From positions 24,640-88,639 of the forward strand of contig CAUZDW010000008.1 in the NCBI GenBank assembly GCA_963578825.1: a stretch of DNA of 64,000 nt. Direction: 5' to 3'. Shown in pieces: positions 9,326 through 43,508 of the stretch. The notes under the pieces are model-generated. The model worked only from the letters and a program-made list of their open reading frames with translations. It was not told where the DNA came from and did no database searches. The translations under genes and the position numbers were made by a program. The DNA is from Vicinamibacteria bacterium. GTDB lineage: Bacteria; Acidobacteriota; Vicinamibacteria; Fen-336. Each line of letters opens with the position of its first letter. Position 1 is the first letter of the stretch.

Positions 9326-9751
9326 TCAGCGGGACCGACGACGTGTCAGCGTCCAGTTCTCGATGGACAATCCCTTCACGCGTTCGAACTCCGTCGTGTT
9401 GTTCGTCACGAGCGTGAGGCCGAGACTCCGCGCGTGTGCTGCAATGAACAAGTCGTTGGCACCGATGAGAGCTCCGCGCTTCTTCAGGTCCGCCCGAATC
9501 TCGGCGTAGTGAGAAGCGGTGTCGTCGTTGAAGTGTAGCGCCTCGACGTACGGTAGCAACGCGGCGAGCGCTGCTGCATCCTGCTTGCGGCGCGGCGATA
9601 TTTCGACACCGTAGAGCAATTCAGCCCGGGTGATGAACGACATACAGACGTCGGTCACAGGCACGGCCTGCAACCGGCGCAGCACCGGCGGGCTGGACCG
9701 CTTCATGATGTAGGAGCACGTGTCTGTGTCCAGCATGTACCGGGCCATCAA
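9326..9751 (-). CDS. vapC: PIN-domain toxin VapC (type II TA)
   Basis: MMARYMLDTDTCSYIMK...TRAELLYGVE...NDLFIAAHARSLGLTLVTNNTTEF, with the PIN acidic residues. The start overlaps the vapB stop (ATGA). Local GC is visibly lower than the surroundings. Confidence 0.8.
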   Translation of the reverse strand: MMARYMLDTDTCSYIMKRSSPPVLRRLQAVPVTDVCMSFITRAELLYGVEISPRRKQDAAALAALLPYVEALHFNDDTASHYAEIRADLKKRGALIGANDLFIAAHARSLGLTLVTNNTTEFERVKGLSIENWTLTRRRSR

Positions 9752-9975
9752 GGCTCGCGCTCCTGCACTGGCAGGTCCTCGACGTCGCCCATGAACGCGT
9801 CCGACGCGACGGCGGCGCTCTCGAGGTACGGACCCCAGTCTCGCGGGCGGGGAGAGAGGATCACGTCCTCACCCTCTTTGCGGATGAAGACCTCGTTTGT
9901 GGAGAACTGGTACTCCTTGGGCAGCCGCACGGCCTGGCTGCGGTTGGTCATGAAGACTTTGGCGGTACGCGGCAT
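9748..9975 (-). CDS. vapB: SpoVT/AbrB-type antitoxin VapB
   Basis: MPRTAKVFMTNRSQAVRLPKEYQFSTNEVFIRKEGEDVILSPRPRDW. There is a GGAGG 9 nt before the ATG. The ORF extension to 10023 only translates the upstream AT-rich palindrome. Confidence 0.75.
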   Translation of the reverse strand: MPRTAKVFMTNRSQAVRLPKEYQFSTNEVFIRKEGEDVILSPRPRDWGPYLESAAVASDAFMGDVEDLPVQEREP

Positions 9976-10111: not shown

Positions 10112-13100
10112 ATGCGCGATCTGTGGCGATCCGTCGTGCTGGTTCTCGGGGTGGGGCTCGTGGTCGCCGCGGTCGTCTGCTCCCGCCCCCGACCCGTGGC
10201 CCGCGGACCACTCTCCCCTGCCGAGGCCGCCGTCGTCTCGGCGTTCACCGGGGGCACGATCTCCCGCGAGAGCCCAGTCCGGGTCGTGTTCAACGAACCC
10301 CTCGGCACGGGTCAGCCCCAGAACGCGCCTCTCGAGAGCGAGCCCTTCCGCTTTGACCCACCCCTCGAAGGGGTGACGGTCTGGACGTCTCCCAGCCGCC
10401 TCGAGTTCCGCCCCGGAGACCGTCTCGAGGAGGGCCGAACGTACTCCGCGCGCCTCGACCTCGAAGCCCTCCTCGGCAACGACGCCCCTGCCGATATCGA
10501 TCGCTTCGAGTTCACCTTCTCGGCGATGCGTCAGTCCTTCTCGGTCAACATCGAGGGCCTTCTGGCGGCGGACACGTCCGACATCGCCCAGCAGAAGCTG
10601 AGCGGGCGTCTCGTCACCGCCGATGTCGAGTCCGACGCGAAGGTCGAGCCACTGATCAGCGCCACTCAGGAGGGCAGAGCCCTCGAGATCGCCTGGAACC
10701 ACCACACGGACCGGCGCAGCCACGCTTTCGTAGTGAAAGCGATCGTCCGTGGCGACGAGACATCGAGTGTCGCTGTGCGGTGGGACGGCTCTTCGATCGG
10801 CGTGACCGAAGACGGCAGCCAGGAGATCGAGGTGCCTGCCGTCGACACGTTCACCGTGAGCCTGGCCCGCCCGGTGCAGGGCCGAGAGGAGTACGTGGAG
10901 CTGCGCTTCACGGACCCGCTGCGCCCCAACCAGAGCCTCAAGGGGCTCGTCGTCATCGGTGATCGGAAGGATCTCCGCTTCGTCATCCGCGGAAGCCTCG
11001 TCGAGATCTACGCCACGGGAGGCTTCTCGGGCGACCTGACCGTCCGGGTCGCCGCCGGTGTCAGAAACGCCCTCGGGTACCGCATGAAGGAAGCGCGCGA
11101 GCTGGGCGTTGCGTTCGAGCCGGTCAAGCCGCAGGTGCGCTTCGCCGGCACCGGCGTCATCGTGCCCACCTCGGCCAACCTAACCGTCGCCATCGAGGCC
11201 GTGAACCTCCGCGCTGTCGTCGTCGAGGCCATCCGGGTCCCCGAGACCAACCTCCCCCAGTTCCTGCAGGTGAACGACCTCGACGGCGAGCGGGAGCTGA
11301 ACCGTGTGGGTCGTGTCGTCTGGAGCAGGACCGTCTCCCTCGAGGTGACCGCCGACAAGCAGGATCGCCGGGTGGCGATCGGGCTGGATCTGTCTCCCCT
11401 CGTGGCGGACGGACCCGGCGGACTCTATCGGCTCACGCTCTCCTTCCGGCGCCCGCACATCCTGTGGTCGTGCCCGGGCGACGCCGCACTCGACGAGGAG
11501 CTGACGACCGCCAGCGAGCTGGCCACCGGCGAAGAGGAGGCCAGCTACTGGGACGCCTGGCTGCAGAACGAGGGCGACGATTGGCGGTCACGATACGAAG
11601 GCCGCCGCGACCCCTGCAACCCTGGCTACTACCAACACTTCTATGACCACGACATCCGCGCCTCGCGAAACGTCCTCGTGTCCGACATCGGTCTCATCGC
11701 CAAGGCGGGCGAGGACGGCACGGTGCTGCTGGTGGCCACGGACCTGCGTTCAGCGGCGCCCCTCCAGGGCGCTGCCGTCACGCTCACCGACTCTCAGCAC
11801 GGCACTCTCGCCACCGGGCACACCGGGGGCGACGGCCTCGTCCGCCTCGAGGTGGAGCGGGCTCCCTTCCTCGCCATGGCGCGCCACGGGAGACAGACCG
11901 GCTACCTGCGCCTCGACAACGGGAGCGCCCTCTCCATGGCGCATTTCGACGTCGCGGGGTCCCGGTCTCCCAAGGGTCTCAAGGGCTTTCTCTACGGCGA
12001 GCGGGGCGTCTGGCGGCCGGGCGACACGCTGCACCTCACGTTCATCCTCCAGGACCCCTCGGGACGGCTCGCCTCGGCCGAGCATCCTGTTCGCTTCGAG
12101 CTTCTCAACCCGCGGGGACAGGTGGTGCGGACGCTGACCCGGGCCGACTGGACCGACGGTTTCTCGGTCTTCGAGATCGCGACACCGCCGGACGCTCCCA
12201 CGGGCGCCTACACCGGGCGGGTCACGGTGGGCGGGGCGGTCTTCGAAAAGGCTCTCAAGATCGAGACGGTCATGCCCAACCGCCTCAAGATCGGCCTCGA
12301 CTTCGGACGGGAGATGCTGGAGTCGAGCGAAAGCCTGTCCGCCGCCCTGACGGCGACGTGGCTTCACGGTGCGACCGCCCGGAACCTGAAGGCCGACGTG
12401 GAGCTGGCGCTGTCCGCAGGGCGGACGCGGTTCGATCGCTGGGCCGAGTTCGTCTTCGACGACCCGACCCGGCGGTACGCGACCGAGCGCCAGACCGTCT
12501 TCGACGGCGCCCTCGACGCCTCCGGTCACGCGCGTGTCGACGCGCGGGTCGACCCGGGGGATGCTGCGCCCGGGATGCTCCGGGCCGACTTCACGACCCG
12601 TGTCTTCGAGCCCGGCGGGGCGTTCAGTATCGACCGCTTCAGCCTCCCGTTCTCGCCGTACGAGCGCTACATCGGCATCCGGCCGCCCAGGGGCGATCGG
12701 GCGCGGGGCATGCTCCTCACGGATACGACGCACGAGCTCAGCATCGTGGCGGTGGACTCCTCGGGACGCCCGGCGGGAGACGGCACGGTGGAGGTGAAGC
12801 TCTACAAGATCGACTGGCGCTGGTGGTGGGAGAAGGGCGAGCGTGGCCTGGCGGCGTGGGCGGAGGCGACCGCGCACACGCCCCTCGACTCGGGGGTGGT
12901 GACGCTCGAGGACGGAGTCGGGACGTGGCCCTTCGAGATCAAGCACCCCGAGTGGGGCCGCTACCTCATCACGGCTGCCGACCGGAAGGGCGGTCACCGG
13001 ACCGGGCAGGTCGTCTACATCGACTGGCCGGGATGGGCCGGGCGCGGGCGGAAGGAGGCCCAGGGGGCCACGGTCTTGACCTTCGCCGCCGAGAAGGAGG

Positions 13101-15673
13101 AGTACGACGTGGGCGAGACGGTGACTCTCGTCCTGCCCACCCCGCAGAAGGGGCGGGCCCTCGTCAGCCTCGAAACCGGGTCTTCGGTGCTGCGAACCGA
13201 ATGGGTCGAGGCCACCGGGACCGAGACCCGTTACCGTTTCGAAGCCACTCCGCGGATGGCGCCCACCATCTACGCCCACGTCACCCTGCTGCAGCCCCAC
13301 GGGCAAACGGCCAACGACCTTCCGATCCGCCTGTATGGCGTGACCCCGGTGAAGGTGCTCGACCCGAAGACACGCCTCCAGCCCGTGGTGGAGTCGGCGG
13401 AGGTCTTCTCTCCCGAGAGCCAGGCGACGATCACGGTCCGTGAGGCCTCGGGACGGCCGATGACCTACACGCTTGCCGTGGTGGACGAAGGGCTTCTGGG
13501 CCTCACCCGCTACGCCACGCCGAATCCCTGGGACCACTTCTACGCCCGCGAGGCCCTCGGTGTGAGGACATGGGACCTCTACGATCAGGTCCTCGGCGCC
13601 TGGGGCGGAGTGCTGGAGCGTCTGCTCGCCATCGGCGGAGACGAGGAGGGGGTGCGCGCCGACGCACAACGCGCCAACCGCTTTCCACCGATGGTGCGTT
13701 TCCTCGGACCCTTCCGCCTGGCCGCCGGGGCCGCCGGAACACATGACGTCGACGTGCCCCAGTACGTGGGAGCTGTCCGGGTGATGGTGGTGGCCGGACG
13801 GGATGGGGCCTTCGGTGCGGCCGATCGGCAGGCCTTCGTGCGGCGCCCGCTCATGATCCTGGCGACACTCCCTCGTGTGCTCGGGCCCGAGGAAGAGGTG
13901 GCGCTTCCGGTGTCGGTCTTTGCCATGGAGCCGCAGGTCCAGGACGTCGAGGTGTCGGTGAAGACCTCCGGGCCACTCCGGGCCGATCCGCCCGTCCGCA
14001 AGACGCTCTTGTTCGACGCCCCGGGCGACGATCTGGTGAGCTTCGATCTGCGGACCGCGTCGGGGCTCGGCGTCGGGACCGCCACGGTGGAGGCCGTCTC
14101 GGGCTCGGAGCGGGCGGTCCAGACCATCGAGATCGACGTGCGGATGTCGACGCAACTGGCGGTGGACGTCCTCGGCACGACGCTCCAGCCCGGGGAATCC
14201 TGGAGGCCCAGGGTGTCCTTCCCCGGGCTCCCCGGTACGAACGAGGCGACCCTCGAGGTGTCCCGGACTCCCCCCCTCGACCTGGGACGACGGCTCGCCT
14301 CGCTGCTGCGATACCCGCACGGCTGTGTGGAGCAGGCCGTCTCCGCCGCCTTTCCCCAGCTCTCCCTCGGCCGTCTTCTCGAGCTCGCCCCGTACCAGGA
14401 GGAACGGGTCGAAAAAAACGTCAAGGCCGCCCTGGAGCGACTGCAGTCGTTCCAGACCTCGGGCGGAGGCTTCGGCTACTGGCCCGGCGACGACGATCCC
14501 AGCGACTGGGTGACGAACTACGCCGGCCACTTCGTCCTCGAGGCCTGGGCCGCGGGCTACCTGCCCCCACCCGGGATGCTCGACCAGTGGACGCGGTTCC
14601 AGGAGCGACGGGCGCGGGCCTGGGTGCCGGGATCGGGACGGGCCGAGCTCGTGCAGGCCTACCGGCTCTTCACGCTGGCCCTGGCCGGAGCCCCCGAGCT
14701 CGGGGCCATGAACCAGCTCCGCGAGCAGGACACTCTGCCCGTGACCACCCGCTGGCGGCTGGCCGCGACCTACGAGATGGCCGGCCAGCCCGAGGCGGCG
14801 GACGCGTTGGCCACTCCGGGCCCGGTGACGGTCAAGCCCTATCGCGAGCTGGCCGGCACGTTCGGCTCGGACGTGCGGGACCGGGCAATGATCCTCGAGT
14901 CGCTCCTCATCCTCGAGCGGGGCGAATCCATCGGCCCTCTCGTGCAGAGCCTCTCCAAGTCTCTCTCTTCGAACCGCTGGCTCAGCACCCAGGAGACGGC
15001 GTACGCACTCCTGGCCCTGGCCCGATCCGCGGGACCGGTGGGAGCCGAGACGGCGTTCACGTGGGCGTGGCGAGACACAGAAGCGGTCCGGGCCACGTCA
15101 CCAGCTCCTCTCGTCCAGCGCGAGCTCGAGACCGACGAGGAGACGCGGGGCTCGCTCGTCGTGAGCAACGTGGGCGAGGGAGTTCTCTACCCTCGCGTCA
15201 TCCTGTCCGGGATGCCTGCGGTCGGCCGCGAGACCGCCGCATCCAACGGGCTCGTGCTCGGCGTCGAATACAAGACGACGGACGGTGGGGCTCTGAATCC
15301 GTCGCGCCTCGACCAGGGGACCGACTTCAAGGCCATCGTGACCGTCACCAACACCGGGGAGCGGGGCGACTATGACCAGCTGGCCCTCTCGCATCTCGTC
15401 GCCTCGGGCTGGGAGATCCACAACGAGCGGATGGGTCCCGGCGGTCGGCGGCCTCCGACGAGTATCACGTACCAGGACGTCCGCGACGACCGAGTCTACA
15501 GCTACTTCAATCTGCGAGCCGGGGAGACGAAGACCGTGGAGCTTCTCCTGAACGCCAGCTACCTCGGCCGCTTCTACCTCCCGCCGGTCGGGATCGAGGC
15601 CATGTACGACGCCACGATCAATGCCCGCGTCGTGGGGCGCTGGGTCGAGGTGGTGCAGGCGGGGAGCCGCTAG
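10112..15673 (+). CDS. Bacterial alpha-2-macroglobulin (YfhM/ECAM-like), 1853 aa, lipoprotein
   Basis: N-terminal signal with Cys (VAAVVCS). A long run of MG-like repeats leads to the thioester motif GCVEQ in LLRYPHGCVEQAVSAAFPQLSLG. C-terminal receptor-binding-like region. A single uninterrupted ORF with a TAG stop. Confidence 0.85.
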   Translation: MRDLWRSVVLVLGVGLVVAAVVCSRPRPVARGPLSPAEAAVVSAFTGGTISRESPVRVVFNEPLGTGQPQNAPLESEPFRFDPPLEGVTVWTSPSRLEFRPGDRLEEGRTYSARLDLEALLGNDAPADIDRFEFTFSAMRQSFSVNIEGLLAADTSDIAQQKLSGRLVTADVESDAKVEPLISATQEGRALEIAWNHHTDRRSHAFVVKAIVRGDETSSVAVRWDGSSIGVTEDGSQEIEVPAVDTFTVSLARPVQGREEYVELRFTDPLRPNQSLKGLVVIGDRKDLRFVIRGSLVEIYATGGFSGDLTVRVAAGVRNALGYRMKEARELGVAFEPVKPQVRFAGTGVIVPTSANLTVAIEAVNLRAVVVEAIRVPETNLPQFLQVNDLDGERELNRVGRVVWSRTVSLEVTADKQDRRVAIGLDLSPLVADGPGGLYRLTLSFRRPHILWSCPGDAALDEELTTASELATGEEEASYWDAWLQNEGDDWRSRYEGRRDPCNPGYYQHFYDHDIRASRNVLVSDIGLIAKAGEDGTVLLVATDLRSAAPLQGAAVTLTDSQHGTLATGHTGGDGLVRLEVERAPFLAMARHGRQTGYLRLDNGSALSMAHFDVAGSRSPKGLKGFLYGERGVWRPGDTLHLTFILQDPSGRLASAEHPVRFELLNPRGQVVRTLTRADWTDGFSVFEIATPPDAPTGAYTGRVTVGGAVFEKALKIETVMPNRLKIGLDFGREMLESSESLSAALTATWLHGATARNLKADVELALSAGRTRFDRWAEFVFDDPTRRYATERQTVFDGALDASGHARVDARVDPGDAAPGMLRADFTTRVFEPGGAFSIDRFSLPFSPYERYIGIRPPRGDRARGMLLTDTTHELSIVAVDSSGRPAGDGTVEVKLYKIDWRWWWEKGERGLAAWAEATAHTPLDSGVVTLEDGVGTWPFEIKHPEWGRYLITAADRKGGHRTGQVVYIDWPGWAGRGRKEAQGATVLTFAAEKEEYDVGETVTLVLPTPQKGRALVSLETGSSVLRTEWVEATGTETRYRFEATPRMAPTIYAHVTLLQPHGQTANDLPIRLYGVTPVKVLDPKTRLQPVVESAEVFSPESQATITVREASGRPMTYTLAVVDEGLLGLTRYATPNPWDHFYAREALGVRTWDLYDQVLGAWGGVLERLLAIGGDEEGVRADAQRANRFPPMVRFLGPFRLAAGAAGTHDVDVPQYVGAVRVMVVAGRDGAFGAADRQAFVRRPLMILATLPRVLGPEEEVALPVSVFAMEPQVQDVEVSVKTSGPLRADPPVRKTLLFDAPGDDLVSFDLRTASGLGVGTATVEAVSGSERAVQTIEIDVRMSTQLAVDVLGTTLQPGESWRPRVSFPGLPGTNEATLEVSRTPPLDLGRRLASLLRYPHGCVEQAVSAAFPQLSLGRLLELAPYQEERVEKNVKAALERLQSFQTSGGGFGYWPGDDDPSDWVTNYAGHFVLEAWAAGYLPPPGMLDQWTRFQERRARAWVPGSGRAELVQAYRLFTLALAGAPELGAMNQLREQDTLPVTTRWRLAATYEMAGQPEAADALATPGPVTVKPYRELAGTFGSDVRDRAMILESLLILERGESIGPLVQSLSKSLSSNRWLSTQETAYALLALARSAGPVGAETAFTWAWRDTEAVRATSPAPLVQRELETDEETRGSLVVSNVGEGVLYPRVILSGMPAVGRETAASNGLVLGVEYKTTDGGALNPSRLDQGTDFKAIVTVTNTGERGDYDQLALSHLVASGWEIHNERMGPGGRRPPTSITYQDVRDDRVYSYFNLRAGETKTVELLLNASYLGRFYLPPVGIEAMYDATINARVVGRWVEVVQAGSR

Positions 15674-15691: not shown

Positions 15692-18169
15692 GTGAAGACG
15701 GTGAGGTTCAAGTGGCCACGATGGCGACCCGGCGTCGGCGCGAGGCTCGCCGGGGCCTCGCTCCTCGGCCTGTTCGCCTTCTGGGCGCTGGTGCCGGTGG
15801 TCCCTTTCGACGACCCGCTCTCCACGGTGATCCTCGACCGCGAGGGCCAGCTCCTCGGCGCAACGATCGCCGCGGATGAGCAGTGGCGTTTCGGAGTGGC
15901 GGCTGCCGCGGCAGTGCCGGAGAAGTTCGTGGCCGCCATCACCTGCTTCGAGGACCGCCGTTTCTTCCGACACCCCGGCGTCGACCCCCTGGCGCTGGCC
16001 CGCGCTCTCGGCCAGAACATCCGTCACGGCCGCGTGGTGAGCGGAGGCTCGACACTCACCATGCAGGTCGTGCGCCTGGCCCGCAAAGACCGGCCACGGA
16101 CATACACCGAGAAGGCCGTCGAGGCGGCGCTGGCTCTGCGGCTTTCGATGTCGCTTTCGAAGAAGGAGGTCCTCGCCCTCTACGCCGCATACGCCCCGTT
16201 CGGCGGAAACACCGTGGGCCTCGACGCTGCGGCGTGGCGCTACTTCGGCCGTTCGGCGGCGCGGCTCTCCTGGGGAGAGATCGCGACGCTGGCCGTGCTC
16301 CCGAACGCGCCGTCCCTGATCCACCCGGGGCGAAACCGGAGCCGGCTCCTGCTCAAGCGCAACCGGCTGCTCGACGCGCTGCGGGAGCGCGGCGCCCTCG
16401 ACGCCATGAGCGCCACGCTGGCCAAGGACGAGCCCCTGCCCCCGGCGCCCAGGCCGGTGCCCCGCGTCGCCCCCCATCTCCTCGAGCGCGTGCGAGCCGA
16501 GCGCCGAGCGGGATCCTGGCGAACCGGAGAGCCGAGCCCCTGGGTGTGGACCACTCTCTCCCACGACGTGCAGGTCCGGGCGAGCGTCGTCCTCGAGCGA
16601 CACCACCGCCGGCTCTCGGCACGCGGCGTCCACAACGCGGCGGCGCTCGTGGCCGAGGTCGACACGGGTCGGGTTCTCGCCTACGTCGGCAACCTCTCGC
16701 ACTTCGACCTGCCCGACCGGGGACACTGGGTCGACGTCGTCCCAGCGCCCCGGAGCACCGGAAGCATCCTGAAGCCGCTGCTCTATGCGGCGATGCTGGA
16801 CGCCGGTGAGGTGCTGCCCGGACAGCTCGTCCCCGACGTCCCCACACGCCTCGGGTCCTTCCACCCGGAGAACTTCGATCGCACCTACTCGGGGGCCGTT
16901 CCCGCCCAGCGGGCCCTCGCCCGCTCGCTCAACGTCCCGGCGGTGCGCCTGCTGAGGGCCTTCGGCACCGACCGCTTCACGGTGCTGCTCCGCCGGCTCG
17001 GGCTCACGACGCTCGAGAGATCGGGCGCACACTACGGCCTCTCGTTGATCCTGGGAGGGGCGGAGGGAACCCTCTTCGACGTCACCGGCGCCTATGCCGG
17101 GCTGGGGCGGCTGGTGAGACGCACCGAGCTCGGGGAGTCCCCGGAGGGCGCGTTCCATCCCCTGACCTATCTGGACGAGCCGTCTCCGGGGACTCGGAGC
17201 AGGAATGGCGACGCCCCGATCGGCCCGGGCGCCGTCTGGCTCACCCTCGAGGCCATGCTGGAGGTGGAGCGGCCCGGGGACGATTTCGCCTGGCGCGCGT
17301 TCTCGTCGTCCCGAAAGATCGCCTGGAAGACCGGAACCAGCTACGGCTTCCGGGACGCCTGGGCGGTGGGCGTCACGCCCCGTCACGTGGTGGGCGTGTG
17401 GGCGGGCAACGCGGACGGCGAAGGACGGCCCGGTCTCACCGGATACTCCGCCGCCGCCCCCATACTCTTCGATCTCTTCGACCTCCTCCCGGGGCGCGGC
17501 TGGTTCGAAGAGCCGGGTCGAGACCTGGCCGAAGTCGAAGTCTGTGCCGACAGCGGCATGCGCCGGGGTCGACACTGTCCGGCGGGCCGGCCGCAGCTCG
17601 TGACGATCCGGGGACTGGAGACGCCGCCCTGCGCCTACTGTCGGCTCGCCCACCTGGACCGGGGAGGCGACTGGCAGGTGCACGGAGACTGCGAGCGGGT
17701 GAGGGACATCGAGAGCGTGCCCCGGTTCGTCCTCCCGCCGGCGATGGAGACCTACTATCGCCTTCGGCACGCCGACTATCGGCCCCTGCCGCCGCTGCGT
17801 CCGGATTGCCGCTCGTCAGTGGGTCCGCGAGCGGCCGCCGCTCTCGACTGCGTCTCCCCGCGAGAGGGCGCGACGCTGTACGTTCCCGTCGAGATGGACG
17901 GCTCGCTTGGGCGGGTCGTCTTCGAAGCCGCTCACCGCGACCCGGCGACCACTGTCTTCTGGCACCTCGACGGCGAGTACCAGGGCCGGACCCGCGACAT
18001 TCACCAGATGGCCCTCGCCCCCCCGCCCGGGAGCCACGTCCTGACGCTCGTCGACGAGAGCGGCGAGTCCGTCACGCGCCGTTTCCGAGCGCTGCGTCGC
18101 GTCACAGCTTCAGGAGCCGCGGTGGGGGCGCCGCAGGCCGGGCGTCGCCGCCTCGCTCAGCGGGAGTAG
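15692..18169 (+). CDS. pbpC: Penicillin-binding protein 1C (transglycosylase/transpeptidase)
   Basis: GT51 motifs EDRRFFRHPGVD and GGSTLTMQVVR; transpeptidase STGSILKP, SLN and KTGTSYG; C-terminal PBP1C-specific domain. It starts 18 nt after the A2M stop, the classic A2M-pbpC pairing. Confidence 0.85.
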   Translation: MKTVRFKWPRWRPGVGARLAGASLLGLFAFWALVPVVPFDDPLSTVILDREGQLLGATIAADEQWRFGVAAAAAVPEKFVAAITCFEDRRFFRHPGVDPLALARALGQNIRHGRVVSGGSTLTMQVVRLARKDRPRTYTEKAVEAALALRLSMSLSKKEVLALYAAYAPFGGNTVGLDAAAWRYFGRSAARLSWGEIATLAVLPNAPSLIHPGRNRSRLLLKRNRLLDALRERGALDAMSATLAKDEPLPPAPRPVPRVAPHLLERVRAERRAGSWRTGEPSPWVWTTLSHDVQVRASVVLERHHRRLSARGVHNAAALVAEVDTGRVLAYVGNLSHFDLPDRGHWVDVVPAPRSTGSILKPLLYAAMLDAGEVLPGQLVPDVPTRLGSFHPENFDRTYSGAVPAQRALARSLNVPAVRLLRAFGTDRFTVLLRRLGLTTLERSGAHYGLSLILGGAEGTLFDVTGAYAGLGRLVRRTELGESPEGAFHPLTYLDEPSPGTRSRNGDAPIGPGAVWLTLEAMLEVERPGDDFAWRAFSSSRKIAWKTGTSYGFRDAWAVGVTPRHVVGVWAGNADGEGRPGLTGYSAAAPILFDLFDLLPGRGWFEEPGRDLAEVEVCADSGMRRGRHCPAGRPQLVTIRGLETPPCAYCRLAHLDRGGDWQVHGDCERVRDIESVPRFVLPPAMETYYRLRHADYRPLPPLRPDCRSSVGPRAAAALDCVSPREGATLYVPVEMDGSLGRVVFEAAHRDPATTVFWHLDGEYQGRTRDIHQMALAPPPGSHVLTLVDESGESVTRRFRALRRVTASGAAVGAPQAGRRRLAQRE

Positions 18170-22238: not shown

Positions 22239-22353
22239 CACATCGAGTCGTCCGCGTCGGTCGCCCGCGAAGTGCGGGTCGCGTTCTCGAGGGCGAGAGA
22301 CCAACCACGGGGAACCGGCGCACCCAGCCTGCGGGTACAATCAGCACTCGCGG

Positions 22354-23628
22354 GTGGAGCGCTCCCGGTTCGAGAGCCTGGCGGCGGAGGACGGGGTGCG
22401 CGCGGCACGCTCCAACTACTACCCCTGGGTCGCCGTCGAGGGGATTGCGAAGGACGGCCTCTCGGGAGCCACCGGTGGCCTGGGCCTGGTGGGGCTGACC
22501 GGCTCACCCTTCTTCGACAAGCTGGCCATCGGCGTCAACGTCAGCTTCAACGCTCTCGACTTCGGCCGCACGAGCAACGCCGTGGACGCGGCCCGGTTCA
22601 CCGCTGCGTCGCTCCGCAGCCGCGAAGAGGCCGAGAAGGCCGCCGTCGTGTGGCAGGTCAAGACCGCCTACTACCGCTGCCTTCAGGCCGAAGACCTGCT
22701 CCAGGTGGCCCGTGAGACGCTCGAGGCAAGGGAGCTCACAGCGCGGCAGGCCCGGGTCTACTACGAGGCCGAGCTTCGGTCGAAGCTCGACGCCAGCTTC
22801 TCCGAGGTTCGTGTAAAGGAGGCCGAAGCAGAGCTGATACGCGCCGAGAACCAGCAACAGCTCGAGTTCGCGGCGCTCGATCTCGCCATGGGAGTGCCGG
22901 GAGAAGGCACCTACCGACTCGAGGCGACGCCGGCCGATTCCGAGCCCGGGGAATCACTCGAGGCTCTCGTCGAGAGAAGCCTGCTCAGCCGACCCGACCT
23001 CGCGGCGGCGCACCTCGAGGCCCAAGCCGTGCGCGCCTCTCTCGAGGCCGCTCGCAGCGAGAGGCTCCCGCAGATCCGTGCGGTGGCCAGCTTCGGGAAG
23101 GCCCGCTTCGCCGAAGGCGTCGACGGGAAGGACTGGGTGGTCGGGGTCGGGTTCAGCGTTCCCGTGTTCACCGGGTTCGCCGTGGATTCGCGCATCCACC
23201 AGGCGGAGTCGAGGCTGCGGGCGGCCCAGGCGGGTCAAAGAGCGATCGTGCAGCGTGTGCGCTTCGAAGTCCAGAGGGCCTTCCTGGGCCTGGAGACCGC
23301 ACGCTCCTTCACGGAGGTGGCCCGCGCCCAGGTGTCTCTGGCCGAGGAGTCCCTGCGTCTGGCCACCCAGAGATATGGAGCGCAGCTCGGGAGCTTCATC
23401 GACCTCACGGCGGCCGACCTGTCCCTGGTCCGCTCGAAGCAGGCCCACGCGCAGGCCGTCTACGACGTCATGATCGCCCGCGCGACCCTGGAGTTCGTGG
23501 TGGGAGAGCCTGCGCCCCACTCGGCGCGGTCGAAGGCCGTGGTGGCTCGAGACTCAGCCTCTACGAGGCTGCCGAGGAACGGCCCGACGCGTTGGAAGCC
23601 GCTGGAGGCCCTCGGCGACCTTCAGTGA
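22354..23628 (+). pseudogene. TolC-family outer-membrane efflux protein, 5'-truncated (no signal peptide or first helix)
   Basis: The translation has both TolC repeats (…SNYYPWVAVEG…FDKLAIGVNVSFNALDFG…; second repeat LVERSLLSRPDLAAAHLEAQAVRASLEAARSERLPQI…ATQRYGAQLGSFIDLTAADLSLV) but begins mid-helix at a GTG. The 115 nt upstream up to the sulfatase stop translate to junk in every frame. Confidence 0.5.
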
Positions 23629-23690
23629 GGTCGGTCTTCGAGTCGGCGGTCGCGATGGCCGGGCCACAAGAGGGTCCCGGACCTGACGTT

Positions 23691-25211
23691 CTACCAGAAG
23701 TAGAGATACAAGCCGATCGTCAGGGCGACGATCACGGCCCCAAAGAGCTTTGCCCTCGGGCTCGCCTTGAGGTCGACCTCGCCGGCGTCCGGAATCTCCC
23801 TCGGTTCCCCTGGGCTCACGTGCGTGTAGAGGAGCATCGCCGCCGACGTCGTGAGGAAGGCGAGGGCCGCCACGTTCAGGTACGGACCGTCGACGACCCA
23901 GATGAAGACGCCGTAGAGGGGCACCGAGACGAGCAGCCCCATCACGGCCGCTCCGGCGGGGACCCTCTTGATGAACATCCCCAGAATGAAGACCGCGAGG
24001 ATGCCGGGCCAGATGAAGTTCCACGCCATCTGCATGTAGTCGTAGATGGGTCCCATTCGCCGCAGCTCGGGGGCAAGAAGGCACGCCAGGACCACGAACG
24101 CAGCGGTGCTCATCCGCCCCATGGCGACGAGGGCCTTTAGCGAAGGCTTCGATTTCGCCCAGTGGCGCTTGTAGAGATCGATCGTCAGGATCGTGGAGGC
24201 GGAGTTCAGCATCGAGTCGAGCGAGCTCATGATCGCCCCGAACAGCGCCGCGAACATGACGCCTCGGAGCCCGGACGGGAGCAGCCTCTTCATCAGAAAG
24301 GGATAGGCCTGATCGGCCTCGGGGACCTCGGAGCCGTAGAGCTAGAAGGCAATGATCCCGGGAAAGACGACAAGGAAGGGAATGACGAGCTTCAAGGCAG
24401 CGGCGAAGAGAATCCCCGGCTGCCCTTCCTCCAGGCTCTTGGCGGCGAGGGCGCGCTAGGTGATGAACTGATTCAAGCCCCAGTAGCAGATGTTCGGGAC
24501 CCAGATTCCCAGCAGAAAGATCGTCCACGGCATCGTGGAGTGGTCCGCCGGCAGGACCATGTGGAGCTTGTCCTGATTCACCTCCAGGAAGACGCCGAGG
24601 CCGCCCACTTCCCGAAGGCCGAGAACCAGCACGACCGCGCCCCCCAGCATCAGCGTGATCCCCTGGACGAGGTCGGACCACACGACAGCCTTGAGGCCGC
24701 CGTAGACCGTGTAGGCGCCCGCCCGCACTCCGATGCCCCAGATGCCGTAGTAGAGATTGACGCCGAAGATGCTGTTGAGCGCGAGACCGCCGGTGTAGAG
24801 GACGCCGGCCATGGCCGCGACCACGTACATGATCATCAGGTAGAAGGCCATGATGGCCCGGGCGGTCGCGTTGTAGCGGTACTCCAGGTACTCGGGGAGG
24901 GTGTAGATCCCGGCGCGCAGGAAGCGTGGGAGCAGCACCAGGGCGACGAAGACGAGAGCGATGGCCGCGATCCACTCGAAGCTGGCGATGGCGAGGCCCA
25001 GTTCGAAGCCCTTGCCTCCCATCCCGATGAAGTGCTCCGTCGAGATGTTGGACGCGACCAGCGACAGGCCGATGAGCCACCAGGTCAGGCTGCGGCCGGC
25101 GAGGAAGTAGTCCTCGGAGGTGTCTTCCTTGCGCGAGGCATACAGCGAGACCGCTATGACAAAGACGATGAATCCGACGAAGGTGCCGATGTCGACGCCA
25201 GAGAGTTCCAT
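23691..25211 (-). pseudogene. Sodium:solute symporter (SSF) interrupted by two in-frame TAG codons
   Basis: A single reading frame (start ATG = plus 25209-25211) gives MELSGVDIGTFVGFIVFVIAVSLYASRKEDTSEDYFLAGRSL…GLNQFIT*RALAAKSLEEGQPGILFAAALKLVIPFLVVFPGIIAF*LYGSE…, with TAGs at plus 24456-24458 and 24342-24344. The first falls where SSF proteins have the Q of the conserved Q-R-x-LAAKS motif. The track splits it into ORFs 24456..25370 and 23691..24293. Confidence 0.7.
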
Positions 25212-25353
25212 GCTCGATTTGATCGGACTCGCCTTTGGGAGTAGCGCTCCCGAGCGGCCTTTGGCTGATCCCGCGTGAGGGCAGATTACATCACGGATTT
25301 CGGAGAGGACGGTGGAGAATAAACTGCTCGACGCGGCGTGGTAGATTTCGTCG

Positions 25354-26436
25354 ATGGAAGGCGGGCTCAAGCTGGGGATCGTCGGTGCGGGACGGATCGG
25401 CGTCTTTCACGCGCAGCACGTCCAGGAGATCGCCAGCGACCGAGGCGACTGCACGCTGAGCGCTGTGATCGACGCCCACGAAGACACCGCCGAGCGCGTG
25501 GCGGCGCAGCTGCAGGAACGCCAGGGTCAGCCCGTCCGCGCGTTCCGCCGCATCGAGGAGGCGATCGACGCCGGGGGCCTCGACGCCGCGGTCGTGGCGT
25601 CTCGCACGGAGGACCATGAGGCCCACACGCGCACCCTCGTCGACGCCGGGTGTCGTGTGCTCCTCGAGAAGCCCCTCGCCAGCTCCTTCGAGAGTGCTGC
25701 GGCGCTGGCGGAGCACCTCGCCGCACTGCCGGGCGGAGATCGGGCGGTCATGCAGGCGTTTCAGCGCCGATTCGACGAGCCGCTCCGGCGGGCCAAGGCG
25801 CTTGTCGACGACGGCGCCGTCGGCCAACCGTTCAAGATTGTGTCGGTGCTCGAGGATCCCGACCCGCCGCCGGAGGGATATCAGAGCCCCGGCCTGCTCC
25901 CCGACATGTCCGTCCACAACGTCGACGAGGTCGTGTGGCTCCTGGGCCAGCGCCCGGATCGCGCGACCGCAATGGCCAGTCGGCTCTACAACACCGCCAT
26001 CGCCTCGGTGAAAGAGGATTTCGACGACGCGCTCATGACCATGTGGTTCCCTGGTGGTGCGGCCGCCCAGGTGCAGGTGAGCCGCAATCACGTCGCCGGC
26101 TACCGCAACGAGACCTGGGTCTACGGCGATCGCGGGGTCGTGCACGTCGGCGGGTTTCAGGAGGATCCGCTGCGGGTCGACGTCGAGGCCCTCGCCCGTG
26201 GCCGAGTCATCGCCCGGGAGACCTTCAGGATGAGATCGTACGACGCCCCCAGCGTGCCGGTGTTCGTCGAACGCTTCGGTCCCGCATACCGCGCCGAGAT
26301 GGTGCACTTCATCAACTGCGTCACCCGGGGCGAGCCGTTCGCGGTCACACACGAAGACGGTCTGGAAGCGCTGCGCATCGTGGAGGCCGCGGCCCGGGCG
26401 GTTCAGACCCGCGACGGCGCCCCGCAGGGCGTGTGA
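25354..26436 (+). CDS. Gfo/Idh/MocA family NAD(P)-dependent oxidoreductase (inositol/sugar dehydrogenase-like)
   Basis: N-terminal Rossmann LKLGIVGAGRIGVFHAQH, EKP motif VLLEKPLA, and a C-terminal alpha/beta domain. Divergent from the symporter gene. Confidence 0.8.
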   Translation: MEGGLKLGIVGAGRIGVFHAQHVQEIASDRGDCTLSAVIDAHEDTAERVAAQLQERQGQPVRAFRRIEEAIDAGGLDAAVVASRTEDHEAHTRTLVDAGCRVLLEKPLASSFESAAALAEHLAALPGGDRAVMQAFQRRFDEPLRRAKALVDDGAVGQPFKIVSVLEDPDPPPEGYQSPGLLPDMSVHNVDEVVWLLGQRPDRATAMASRLYNTAIASVKEDFDDALMTMWFPGGAAAQVQVSRNHVAGYRNETWVYGDRGVVHVGGFQEDPLRVDVEALARGRVIARETFRMRSYDAPSVPVFVERFGPAYRAEMVHFINCVTRGEPFAVTHEDGLEALRIVEAAARAVQTRDGAPQGV

Positions 26437-26672: not shown

Positions 26673-26879
26673 CTACAAGAGCTTGTGACGGACCGCGAAC
26701 GTCACGAGCTCGGCGCTCGTGTCGATAGCGAGGCTCTTCATCGCACGGTACTTGTGGAAGGCCACGGTGCGTGCCGTGATGCCGAGGGCAGCCGCAGCCT
26801 GCTTCATCGAGCGGCCCTCCGCCAGAAGCTGGACGACCTCGCGCTCGCGAGGCGTCAGGAGCTCCACAGGATTGCTCAC
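26673..26879 (-). CDS. Small LuxR/GerE-type HTH protein (about 68 aa); start uncertain
   Basis: LTPREREVVQLLAEGRSMKQAAAALGITARTVAFHKYRAMKSLAIDTSAELVTFAVRHKLL is a canonical LuxR C-terminal HTH. The only nearby in-frame start is a GTG (plus 26877-26879) with no SD. Upstream in-frame sequence is junk. Confidence 0.35.
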   Translation of the reverse strand: MSNPVELLTPREREVVQLLAEGRSMKQAAAALGITARTVAFHKYRAMKSLAIDTSAELVTFAVRHKLL

Positions 26880-26929
26880 GACGTTGGGGGGCGGCAGGGC
26901 GTCGATGTCGCCGCCGTCGATCAGCGGTG

Positions 26930-27268
26930 TCAGGTAGCGGCGATTTTCGAGGGCCGCGCGGACCCCATGAAGATGACGCGGATCTCGTTGGGCTGGATCT
27001 CTTCGGTTCCGGGGAACCAGTTCGCGGCGCTCTTCAGCCACGGCATGGGCCGGATCCCCTCGAAGAGGAGTCCCTCCTTCCAGCGGTCCATGGGCACGCC
27101 GCCGAAGAGAGCGGCCTTGATGTCCGCCTCGCTGGACGGCGTCTGCTTGGGCGGCGCCTGGGCCAGCGCGGCCCCCGCCGTGAGAGCCACAGCGGCGGCA
27201 GCCGCAACGGCAACGAATTTCCTGGTCCAAGCACGGGCCCCGGCCCGGCGGTATCTGCTTGATTTCAA
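26930..27268 (-). CDS. Small secreted protein with Tat-like signal (RR + hydrophobic + AxA)
   Basis: MKSSRYRRAGARAWTRKFVAVAAAAAVALTAGAALAQAPPKQTP... Its 3' end overlaps the LuxR-HTH ORF by about 10 nt in another frame. Confidence 0.3.
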   Translation of the reverse strand: MKSSRYRRAGARAWTRKFVAVAAAAAVALTAGAALAQAPPKQTPSSEADIKAALFGGVPMDRWKEGLLFEGIRPMPWLKSAANWFPGTEEIQPNEIRVIFMGSARPSKIAAT

Positions 27269-42570: not shown

Positions 42571-43508
42571 ATGGCGGAGAGCGACACACGGATCGGCATC
42601 CTGCGCGGGCGCGAAAACTCCTTCCCCGACGCCTTCATCGAGAAGGTGAACGGGACGGCAAGGGCGTGAGTGCGGAGTACGTCCAGCTGGGCGGCACCAA
42701 GCTCAACGAGGATGTCCCCTATCGAGTCATCGTCGACCGCATGAGCCACGAGGTCCCGTACTACGAGGTCTAGCTGAAGATGGTGGCGCTGCAGGGGACT
42801 TACTGCATCAACAACACGTTCTGGCGCTGCGCCAACGACAAGTTCTTCGGCTATGCCGTGGCGGAGAAGCTCGGGATCGCCTCGCCGAAGACGGTGGTGC
42901 TCCCGAACAAATCCTATGTGGAGGATGTGACCGGGGACAGTCTGCGAAACCTCTGGCCCGTCGACTTTGCCGGCCTCCTGGACTACGTGGGCACGCCCTG
43001 CATCATGAAGCCCGCCTTCGGAGGCGGCTGGAAGAACGTCAACAAGATCCACTCGCTGGACGAGCTGATGGAGAAGTACGACGACTCCGGGACCCTCACG
43101 TTGATGTTGCAGGAGTTCATTTCCTGGGATGTCTTCATCCGGATTCCCACGGTGGGTCGGCGTTGGGCCCGGGCAATCCGCTACGATCCCGCGCCCCTCG
43201 CCCAGGGGGGCTATGATCAGGACTACGACGCGCTGAGCGCAAAGCTCCGGGACGAGGCCGAAGAGTTGTCCCTGCGGTTCAACCAGGCCCTGGGCTACGA
43301 CATGAATGCCGTGGAGTTCGCTGTGAAGGACGATCGCTTCTACGGGATCGACCTCACGAACTACACCCCGGACTTCGACCATCGCAGCCTGAAGGACGCC
43401 CACTTCCCCTGGGTCGTGGAGAAGATGGCGTCGTACGCGGTGGAAAAGGCCCTCTCGGACGAGCCCACGCCGAAGGTACCGGACTGGAAGGCGCTTCTCC
43501 TGCGCTAG
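42571..43508 (+). pseudogene. ATP-grasp family protein disrupted by a frameshift and an in-frame TAG
   Basis: The ATG at 42571 (SD GAGGAGAA) gives MAESDTRIGILRGRENSFPDAFIEKVNGTARA and then TGA at 42667. The neighbouring frame continues as GKGVSAEYVQLGGTKLNEDVPYRVIVDRMSHEVPYYEV, then TAG (42771-42773), then in the same frame LKMVALQGTYCINNTFW...CIMKPAFGGGWKNVNKIHSLDEL (ATP-grasp B-loop) through to 43508. Confidence 0.55.

What the first reader, a model, noticed from the sequence alone, without database searches (positions are those of the whole stretch)
23691..25211. Sodium:solute symporter interrupted by two in-frame amber codons at conserved positions
One continuous 507-codon frame encodes a recognisable SSF transporter but contains TAG at plus 24456-24458 and 24342-24344, and it also terminates with TAG. 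The first TAG replaces the Q of the conserved Q-R-x-LAAKS motif, which CAG to TAG would explain in one step. There are no indels. Either this is a pseudogene created by two nonsense substitutions, or the gene is expressed through amber suppression.
Basis: seen in the sequence. Interest (0 to 1): 0.6.

Follow-up and report, generated by a model that had tools for sequence, protein, structure and literature searches.

The report
Young pseudogene of a sodium:sugar symporter
A sodium:solute transporter gene in one clonal strain of an uncultured, probably marine, bacterium has been knocked out by two C-to-T mutations that turn conserved glutamine codons into stop codons; this is ordinary recent gene decay, not a sign of an altered genetic code.

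Summary
A 507-codon minus-strand frame (25211..23691) encodes a vSGLT/YidK-like SSF transporter. It has in-frame TAG at codons 252 and 290, no indels, and a TAG terminator. Both TAGs replace Gln residues that are invariant in 15/15 aligned homologues.

The TAGs are not assembly errors. Contigs from other assemblies and samples are 100% identical here, and at least three span both sites.

The evidence favours the pseudogene reading:
- Sister strains at 97.5-98% nucleotide identity have CAG at both sites.
- No metagenome locus carries TAG at site 1, against 32 with CAG.
- The window branch also carries radical missense changes (L163R, L265P, P358L) that no relative has.
- TAG terminates 16 of the 51 called genes, including this gene's own orthologues.
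- Stop-codon usage has not shifted relative to the sister strains.
- No tRNA lies in the window.

A second, highly conserved gene is also broken (ATP-grasp, 42571..43508). It has a 1-nt deletion plus TAC>TAG at a conserved Tyr. Glutamine-inserting suppression cannot explain either lesion.

A truncated response-regulator remnant lies next to the locus.

Verdict: an ordinary, recently inactivated gene. Amber suppression is not supported, but it cannot be formally excluded without the whole genome. Interest is low.

The parts
23691..25211 (-). SSF (vSGLT/YidK-like sodium:solute symporter) pseudogene; a 507-codon frame without indels
   Evidence: Homologues up to 98% identical and of full length. 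PDB vSGLT 2xq2 E=6e-102 over residues 3-506. Sister P0131 passes NCBIfam NF007790 (420 bits against a cut-off of 401).
24456..24458 (-). Nonsense lesion 1: codon 252, CAG>TAG (Gln>stop) in the QRALAAKS motif
   Evidence: Q in all 15 aligned homologues. CAG in L006, L007, L008 and L005. 0 metagenome loci with TAG against 32 with CAG for the same flanking pattern.
24342..24344 (-). Nonsense lesion 2: codon 290, CAG>TAG (Gln>stop) in AFQLYG
   Evidence: Q in all 15 aligned homologues. CAG in sister strains and outgroups.
24723..24725 (-). Radical missense change on the same branch: codon 163, CTG>CGG (Leu>Arg) in a hydrophobic stretch (GIGVRAG)
   Evidence: L in both sister strains and both outgroups. 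The column holds only L/V/I in the other 15 sequences.
24417..24419 (-). Radical missense change on the same branch: codon 265, CTG>CCG (Leu>Pro)
   Evidence: Pro occurs in no aligned homologue at this column.
24138..24140 (-). Missense change on the same branch: codon 358, CCA>CTA (Pro>Leu)
   Evidence: P in both sister strains and both outgroups.
23691..23693 (-). Natural TAG terminator of the gene, shared with all orthologues
   Evidence: All five aligned loci end ...TTCTGGTAG, and homology stops immediately after it.
25354..26436 (+). Divergently transcribed Gfo/Idh/MocA oxidoreductase, the conserved partner of the SSF gene in every related locus; intact here
   Evidence: Gene calls and Pfam families. 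Intact 360-codon ORF.
26673..26965 (-). Remnant of a LuxR-type response regulator (about 97 C-terminal residues; the receiver domain is missing). The full kinase plus regulator pair is present in strain L006
42571..43508 (+). Second pseudogene in the window: a conserved 312-aa ATP-grasp ligase gene, with a T>C change and a 1-nt deletion at 42656/42657 and TAC>TAG (Tyr68>stop) at 42771-42773
   Evidence: Intact 312-aa homologues at 98% identity and 100% coverage. DNA alignment. Both lesions are identical in six assemblies.

Best explanation
This is a recently inactivated (young) pseudogene of a vSGLT/YidK-type sodium:solute symporter in one clonal strain of an uncultured, high-GC bacterium that is probably marine. 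Two independent C>T transitions converted conserved CAG (Gln252, Gln290) codons into TAG. Translation is expected to stop at codon 252 and release a 251-residue N-terminal fragment. That fragment lacks the helix carrying the conserved Lys274 (aligned with position 294 of vSGLT, Ala in the 2xq2 chain; that the wild type has a sugar-binding Lys there is from my own knowledge) and everything after it, so no transporter is made. After the first lesion the gene drifted neutrally and picked up the second stop and radical missense changes (L163R, L265P, P358L). Shown: the lesions, their reproducibility, their absence from close relatives, and normal use of TAG as a terminator. Inferred: loss of function, and the order and neutrality of the later changes.
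For: (1) Sister strains L006 and L007 are 97.5-98.0% identical in this gene and have CAG at both sites, as do L008 and L005. All 15 aligned homologues have Q there. A metagenome scan for the flanking motif found 0 loci with TAG and 32 with CAG. (2) Changes on the window branch number 8 non-synonymous (2 stops, L163R, K213Q, L265P, P358L, M409I, A447V) against 7-9 synonymous. The sister branches show 6:15 and 4:10. The window's missense changes are more radical (mean BLOSUM62 -1.0 against +1.1; one-sided Mann-Whitney p=0.03). (3) TAG is an ordinary terminator: 16 of the 51 called genes in the window end in TAG, counting alpha-2-macroglobulin and not counting the internal TAG that ends the SSF N-fragment call. 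These include PurE, Pol IV, PBP1C and alpha-2-macroglobulin, and the SSF orthologues themselves. In-frame extensions past TAG stops lose the coding composition, except at the SSF gene and at the junction of the two separately called genes alpha-2-macroglobulin and PBP1C. Orthologous genes keep the same TAG stops in the sister strains, so there is no shift away from TAG. (4) The ATP-grasp gene at 42571..43508 is broken by a frameshift plus a TAG at a conserved Tyr. A response-regulator remnant lies beside the locus. Gene decay is therefore occurring in this genome by several mutation types. (5) C>T on the sense strand is the commonest substitution class in this gene in all three strains (15 of 52), so CAG>TAG is an expected route to a stop, about 20% of nonsense paths. 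(6) No tRNA is found in the 64-kb window or in the additional 7.4 kb of L089.
Against: The excess of non-synonymous over synonymous changes on the window branch is not statistically significant (Fisher p=0.12-0.22). Two nonsense changes among about 17 substitutions, both CAG>TAG and both in the only two CCAGC contexts among the seven ancestral CAG codons, is mildly improbable (each consideration about p=0.05). The rest of the genome could not be searched for a suppressor tRNA. No expression data are available.
Confidence: 0.9

Rival explanations
1. The gene is functional because this strain carries an amber suppressor, for example a tRNA-Gln with a CUA anticodon, that reads both TAGs as glutamine and restores the wild-type protein.
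For: Both TAGs sit exactly at invariant Gln positions, so a Gln-inserting suppressor would restore the native sequence. There are no indels. Both TAGs are followed by C; from my own knowledge this is a weak termination context in E. coli.
Against: TAG terminates 16 of 51 genes, and the same TAG stops are kept in the sister strains. The TAGs are absent from all relatives. The same branch carries L163R and L265P, which suppression would not repair. The other in-frame TAG in the window replaces Tyr and sits in a frameshifted gene. No tRNA is found in 71 kb. CAG>TAG at Gln is also what the commonest mutation class (C>T) produces.
Confidence: 0.03
2. The TAGs are sequencing or assembly artefacts, or a minority allele promoted to the consensus, and the real gene is intact.
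For: The window comes from a metagenome assembly, and read-level data were not available.
Against: Contigs from other assemblies and samples built with different assemblers are 100% identical across this region. These are MEGAHIT-style k141 contigs of ERZ27247711, ERZ27247695 and ERZ27247714, and a Logan contig of SRR9039963. At least three of them span both sites. The exact fragment proteins are also recorded from NCBI and JGI/IMG sources. The ATP-grasp lesions are likewise identical in six assemblies, including JGI 3300031802.
Confidence: 0.02
3. Loss of the transporter was adaptive, for example escape from a toxic substrate or from a phage that uses it, rather than neutral decay. The first stop was selected and the rest followed.
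For: There is a slight excess of nonsense changes for so short a branch. The clone carrying them is found at 100% identity in several samples. The neighbourhood is variable: the TonB-dependent receptor that follows the gene in L005 and L006 is absent here, and the regulator is truncated.
Against: Nothing distinguishes selection from drift with one clone. The regulator truncation is shared with L007, whose SSF gene is intact. The ATP-grasp pseudogene shows that unrelated genes decay too.
Confidence: 0.15
4. The fragments work together as a split transporter: the 251-aa N-fragment plus a re-initiated C-fragment of 188-200 aa.
For: ORFs with ATG starts exist downstream: 23691..24293 (200 aa) and the called 188-aa gene.
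Against: Residues 252 to about 306 would be missing. They form a conserved membrane segment with the invariant K274 and P278. No relative is split. Mutations L163R and L265P argue against constraint.
Confidence: 0.01

Closest known systems
vSGLT of Vibrio parahaemolyticus (PDB 3DH4, 2XQ2) and the E. coli YidK-type SSF transporters (NCBIfam NF007790 / PRK10484; Pfam PF00474)
   Same: Full-length sequence similarity (E=6e-102 to 2xq2 over residues 3-506). The SSF domain lies on both sides of the stops. The intact sister protein passes the NF007790 equivalog cut-off. The QR-x-LAAKS motif and the Lys aligned with position 294 of vSGLT (Ala in the 2xq2 chain) are conserved in the family.
   Different: The window copy has two premature stops and radical missense changes, so it is a decayed member, not a working one. 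The substrate is unknown.
Classical amber (CAG>TAG) nonsense mutations at Gln codons, such as the lacI amber sites and their C>T deamination hotspots (Coulondre et al. 1978; my own knowledge)
   Same: A single C>T transition turns a CAG Gln codon into TAG. C>T is the commonest substitution class here.
   Different: The sites here are CCAGC, not the Dcm motif CCWGG. Other C>T changes on the branch share no motif. No methyltransferase was linked to them.
Reassignment or suppression of UAG: code-15 phages (UAG=Gln), pyrrolysine systems, supE-type suppressor strains (my own knowledge)
   Same: In-frame TAG at positions where Gln is expected.
   Different: Here TAG is a common terminator (16 of 51 genes). 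The in-frame TAGs are confined to two decayed genes, one at Gln and one at Tyr. They are not conserved in relatives. No tRNA(CUA) or pyl genes appear in the gene and Pfam lists for the window.

Membership tests
Sodium:solute symporter family (Pfam PF00474, TC 2.A.21) | Significant match to the SSF profile | tested here: met
   N-fragment E=4.3e-42 (profile 1-177) and C-fragment E=1.3e-28 (profile 271-405), both far above the 22.8-bit cut-off.
Sodium:solute symporter family (Pfam PF00474, TC 2.A.21) | YidK/vSGLT-type subfamily (NCBIfam NF007790 equivalog; similarity to vSGLT) | tested here: met
   Sister protein P0131 (about 98% identical) scores 420.2 bits against a cut-off of 401. The window protein against 2xq2 gives E=6.4e-102 over residues 3-506. 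The window protein itself was not scored against NF007790.
Sodium:solute symporter family (Pfam PF00474, TC 2.A.21) | Uninterrupted reading frame encoding all transmembrane helices (a working member) | tested here: not met
   Stops at codons 252 and 290. Homologues are uninterrupted at 505-521 aa.
Pseudogene (recent, unitary) | Disabling lesions relative to intact close orthologues | tested here: met
   CAG in the sister strains at 97.5-98% nucleotide identity, TAG here.
Pseudogene (recent, unitary) | Relaxed selective constraint on the lineage | tested here: inconclusive
   Non-synonymous to synonymous counts are 8:7-9 on the window branch against 10:25 in the sister strains (Fisher p=0.12-0.22). 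Missense changes are more radical (p=0.03).
Pseudogene (recent, unitary) | No full-length product is made | not testable with these tools
   This needs proteomics, ribosome profiling or transport assays.
Genome-wide UAG reassignment (e.g. UAG=Gln, table 15) | TAG rare or absent as a terminator, with genes running through TAG | tested here: not met
   16 of the 51 called genes end in TAG. Extensions past TAG lose the coding composition, except at the SSF gene and the alpha-2-macroglobulin/PBP1C junction.
Genome-wide UAG reassignment (e.g. UAG=Gln, table 15) | In-frame TAG in many genes at positions of one conserved amino acid | tested here: not met
   A scan of all 442 TAG trinucleotides found coding signal on both sides only at the SSF gene, the alpha-2-macroglobulin/PBP1C junction, the ATP-grasp gene and one weak upstream site. 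The first SSF TAG (24456) fell just short of this scan's thresholds; it is supported. The ATP-grasp TAG replaces Tyr, not Gln, and the gene is also frameshifted.
Amber suppression / pyrrolysine | tRNA with a CUA anticodon (or pylTSBCD) in the genome | tested here: inconclusive
   No tRNA at all in the window or in L089, and no Pyl families in the gene lists. Only about 71 kb of the genome was available.
Programmed, conserved stop-codon read-through | The stop codon is conserved at the same position in related lineages | tested here: not met
   All relatives have CAG. 0 TAG against 32 CAG loci in metagenome contigs.

The most novel reading that the evidence does not exclude
This strain has acquired a supE-like glutamine-inserting amber suppressor tRNA. 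Under this reading the two TAGs at invariant Gln codons are tolerated, or even used to throttle expression of the transporter, in a free-living environmental bacterium that still uses TAG as a terminator.
Probability: 0.03. Interest if true: 0.5.

Novelty: already known. Interest (0 to 1): 0.1.

Why it matters
It matters mainly as a negative result. In-frame TAGs at conserved Gln codons can look like recoding, but here they are young nonsense mutations in a decaying gene. The case shows which checks settle the question: close sister strains, terminator usage in neighbouring genes, and other broken genes nearby. It also means the two SSF fragments and the ATP-grasp fragments called as separate genes in public assemblies should be annotated as pseudogenes. 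It has no bearing on genetic-code evolution unless a suppressor tRNA is found in the rest of the genome.

Tried and rejected
1. Genome-wide TAG recoding. I compared ORF maps with TAG read as sense, tabulated stop-codon usage, and measured GC1/GC2/GC3 composition past each TAG stop. Rejected.

2. A metagenome scan for any SSF gene with TAG at site 1 (pattern AAYCARTTYATHACNTAGCGNGCNCT) gave 0 hits. The CAG control gave 32. The window's own contig is not in that collection, so the scan says nothing about this strain.

3. A branch-specific test of non-synonymous against synonymous changes was suggestive but not significant. The neighbouring Gfo/Idh/MocA gene was a poor control: it evolves fast in all three strains, and its N-terminus looks recombinant.

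4. I looked for a methylation or deamination motif behind the C>T changes. The two TAG sites are the only CCAGC contexts among the ancestral CAG codons, but the other C>T changes share no motif. Left as a coincidence at about p=0.05.

5. Promoter and terminator scan around the gene: no sigma-70-like site, and terminator-like hits at chance level.

6. Pfam gave no family for the ATP-grasp pseudogene. Homologues were needed to recognise it.

7. The genome-collection scan did not find this species. The nearest representative is 92% identical in protein (89.5% nucleotide) and labelled 'uncultured Hyphomicrobium sp.', and more distant relatives are labelled Gemmatimonadota, Myxococcota or Deltaproteobacteria. 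The taxonomy of the window therefore stays unresolved.

8. The alpha-2-macroglobulin/PBP1C junction (in-frame TAG at 15671) looked like read-through by composition. It separates two genes that the public gene calls list separately, each with its own Pfam domains; from my own knowledge it matches the known yfhM-pbpC two-gene arrangement.

Full report
**Observation**

The minus-strand frame 25211..23691 translates to 507 codons. It has '*' at codon 252 (TAG, 24456-24458), codon 290 (TAG, 24342-24344) and the last codon (TAG, 23691-23693). Pfam SSF (PF00474) matches the parts before and after the stops, at E=4e-42 and 1e-28.

The conceptual protein matches vSGLT (PDB 2xq2) at E=6e-102 over residues 3-506. 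An intact sister protein that is about 98% identical passes the NCBIfam equivalog NF007790, the YidK-type SSF transporter.

More than 7000 homologues were found, the best ones full-length at 505-521 aa. In an alignment of 15 of them, both TAG columns are invariant Gln. The orthologue DNA reads CAG at both. The gene aligns without gaps to five orthologous loci of the same length, 1521 nt.

**Are the TAGs real?**

The exact 251-aa N-terminal fragment is recorded on six contigs, of which four places were shown. Those four contigs, from ENA assemblies ERZ27247711, ERZ27247695 and ERZ27247714 and from Logan's assembly of SRR9039963, are 100% identical to the window. The ERZ27247711 contig, L002 and L003 span both TAG sites; L004 spans only the first.

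The fragment proteins are also recorded from NCBI and JGI/IMG sources. The window itself is part of ena:ERZ27247711:k141_1151774, a 123,655-bp contig, with record position = window position + 15105. An assembly error is therefore very unlikely. Read-level frequencies could not be examined.

**Is TAG recoded in this organism?**

No.

- Public gene calls list 50 genes inside the window, plus alpha-2-macroglobulin, whose stop I read directly. Of these 51, 31 end in TGA, 3 in TAA and 17 in TAG. One of the 17 is the internal SSF stop at codon 252, so 16 genes terminate naturally in TAG.
- The TAG-terminated genes include PurE, Pol IV, a PPIase, PBP1C and alpha-2-macroglobulin.
- The SSF gene's own terminator is TAG in all five related loci, and homology ends right after it.
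- In-frame extensions beyond TAG terminators lose the coding signature (GC1 above GC2, high GC3). The exceptions are the SSF gene and the alpha-2-macroglobulin/PBP1C junction. That junction separates two genes that are called separately with their own Pfam domains; from my own knowledge it matches the known yfhM-pbpC two-gene arrangement.
- Orthologous genes in the sister strains keep the same TAG stops, so there is no sign of selection against TAG terminators in this strain.
- No tRNA gene lies in the window or in 7.4 kb beyond it.

**Are the TAGs conserved?**

No. The protein cluster around the nearest homologue contains two proteins, P0128 and P0131, that are about 98% identical to the window protein. 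Their loci (L007 and L006) are 98.0% and 97.5% identical in nucleotides, and both have CAG at both sites.

More distant orthologues (L008 at 89.5%, L005 at 85.9%) also have CAG. A scan of the JGI metagenome collection for the degenerate motif N-Q-F-I-T-TAG-R-A-L found nothing. The same motif with CAG found 32 loci.

**What else happened on this branch?**

I compared the window with its two sister strains and used the two outgroups to assign direction.

| Branch | Non-synonymous | Synonymous |
|---|---|---|
| Window | 8 | 7 polarised (9 in all) |
| L006 | 6 | 15 |
| L007 | 4 | 10 |

The window's non-synonymous changes are Q252*, Q290*, L163R, K213Q, L265P, P358L, M409I and A447V. The sister strains carry only conservative replacements.

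The count difference is not significant (Fisher p=0.12-0.22). The window's missense changes are significantly more radical (mean BLOSUM62 -1.0 against +1.1, p=0.03). An Arg and a Pro are introduced into conserved hydrophobic segments where no homologue has them.

This pattern fits a gene that lost constraint part-way along a short branch.

**Is 'two CAG>TAG' suspicious?**

Only mildly. C>T on the sense strand is the commonest substitution class in this gene in all three strains, at 15 of 52 changes. With that spectrum, CAG>TAG accounts for about 20% of all nonsense paths, and about 1.9% of mutations are nonsense.

Given that the gene was picked out because it has a stop, a second stop among about 16 further changes has a probability of about 0.26. 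The two mutated codons are the only two of the seven ancestral CAG codons that sit in a CCAGC context (1 in 21). The other C>T changes share no motif, so I treat this as an unexplained minor coincidence.

**A second broken gene**

A scan for in-frame TAGs flanked by coding composition turned up 42771 (+).

- There, an ORF starting at ATG 42571, preceded by GAGGAG, stops after 32 codons.
- A second frame continues to TAG 42771.
- A 242-codon ORF follows.
- The conceptual join is a 312-aa ATP-grasp ligase. It matches thousands of 312-aa proteins over 100% of its length, the best at 98% identity.
- The DNA alignment shows ATGG>AC-G (a 1-nt deletion at 42656/42657) and TAC>TAG at the nearly invariant Tyr68.
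- Both lesions are identical in six assemblies, including JGI 3300031802 and Logan SRR9039920.

This gene cannot be rescued by a Gln suppressor. It shows that gene decay by mixed lesion types is under way in this genome.

Next to the SSF/oxidoreductase pair lies a 97-residue C-terminal remnant of a LuxR-type response regulator. The complete kinase plus regulator pair is present in strain L006. The sequence downstream of the SSF gene differs in every strain. L005 and L006 carry a TonB-dependent receptor there; the window carries an outer-membrane efflux gene instead.

**Mechanism (inferred)**

Ribosomes terminate at codon 252 and release a 251-residue fragment. The missing part starts with the membrane helix that carries the invariant Lys274. 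This aligns with position 294 of vSGLT, which is Ala in the 2xq2 chain. From my own knowledge, 2xq2 is the K294A mutant and Lys294 is a sugar-binding residue. No transport-competent protein is expected.

Near-cognate read-through of two consecutive UAGs would be negligible (my own knowledge). I could not tell whether the loss was neutral or advantageous.

**Comparison with known systems, and novelty**

The protein family is well known (SSF, vSGLT/YidK-type). The lesions are classical amber mutations at Gln codons. The defining features of UAG reassignment, pyrrolysine decoding or programmed read-through were each tested as far as the data allow. They were not met, or, for a genome-wide suppressor tRNA, could not be tested. 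The finding is real but ordinary: a young pseudogene.

**Verdict**

- Pseudogene: 0.9.
- Residual probability of natural amber suppression: about 0.03.
- Interest: 0.1.

Noticed in passing
window 42571..43508 (+): A second pseudogene. A highly conserved 312-aa ATP-grasp ('glutathione synthase/RimK-type ligase-like') gene is broken by a 1-nt deletion at 42656/42657 and by TAC>TAG (Tyr68) at 42771-42773. Public assemblies call it as three ORFs of 32, 35 and 242 aa. Intact homologues are 98% identical.
   Followed up: yes
window 26673..26965 (-): Only the C-terminal GerE/LuxR HTH part (about 97 residues) of a response regulator remains, and the receiver domain is missing. Strain L006 has the full HisKA_3 kinase plus regulator at this place. 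Strain L007 shares the truncation but has an intact SSF gene.
   Followed up: partly
window 22348..23679, against L007 11579..11858, L006 11580 onwards and L005 2708 onwards: Homology between strains ends right after the SSF stop codon. The window has an outer-membrane efflux (OEP) gene (22354..23628) here. L007 has only about 280 bp before the sulfatase gene. L006 and L005 have a CarboxypepD_reg/Plug TonB-dependent receptor. The SSF plus Gfo/Idh/MocA pair behaves as a two-gene cassette in a variable neighbourhood.
   Followed up: partly
window 10112..15673 and 15701..18169 (+): The alpha-2-macroglobulin and PBP1C genes lie in the same reading frame, separated only by TAG 15671 and a few codons, so by composition alone they mimic a read-through candidate. 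They are called as two separate genes with their own Pfam domains, and from my own knowledge they match the known two-gene yfhM-pbpC arrangement.
   Followed up: partly
whole window; 24342, 24456, 42770: The tetranucleotide CTAG is strongly under-represented (22 observed against about 73 expected from trinucleotide frequencies). All three premature TAGs lie in the pentamer CTAGC, although they arose from different ancestors (CCAGC twice, CTACC once). No explanation was found.
   Followed up: partly
window 25212..25353 and 25354..25375: The SSF/oxidoreductase intergenic region lacks about 31 nt that the sister strains have and is unusually diverged. The oxidoreductase N-terminus (MEGGLKLG) resembles the more distant L008 (MEGPLKLG) rather than the sister strains (VGAELKVG), which suggests a small recombination tract. 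A 17-nt core, CCGTGATGTAATCTGCC (25280..25296, minus strand), is largely conserved across the five loci (identical apart from one or two positions in three of them).
   Followed up: partly
L006 2472..4300 and 11812..14803: In the sister-strain contig (ctg122938, 505 kb) the Peptidase_M2 gene is split into 330 + 279 aa and the TonB-dependent receptor into three pieces. An IS (rve) transposase lies nearby. These are either long-read assembly indel errors or further pseudogenes.
   Followed up: no
window 9326..9975 (-): A PIN-domain toxin (140 aa) with an overlapping 75-aa putative antitoxin lies between the Tricorn-like peptidase gene and the alpha-2-macroglobulin gene.
   Followed up: no
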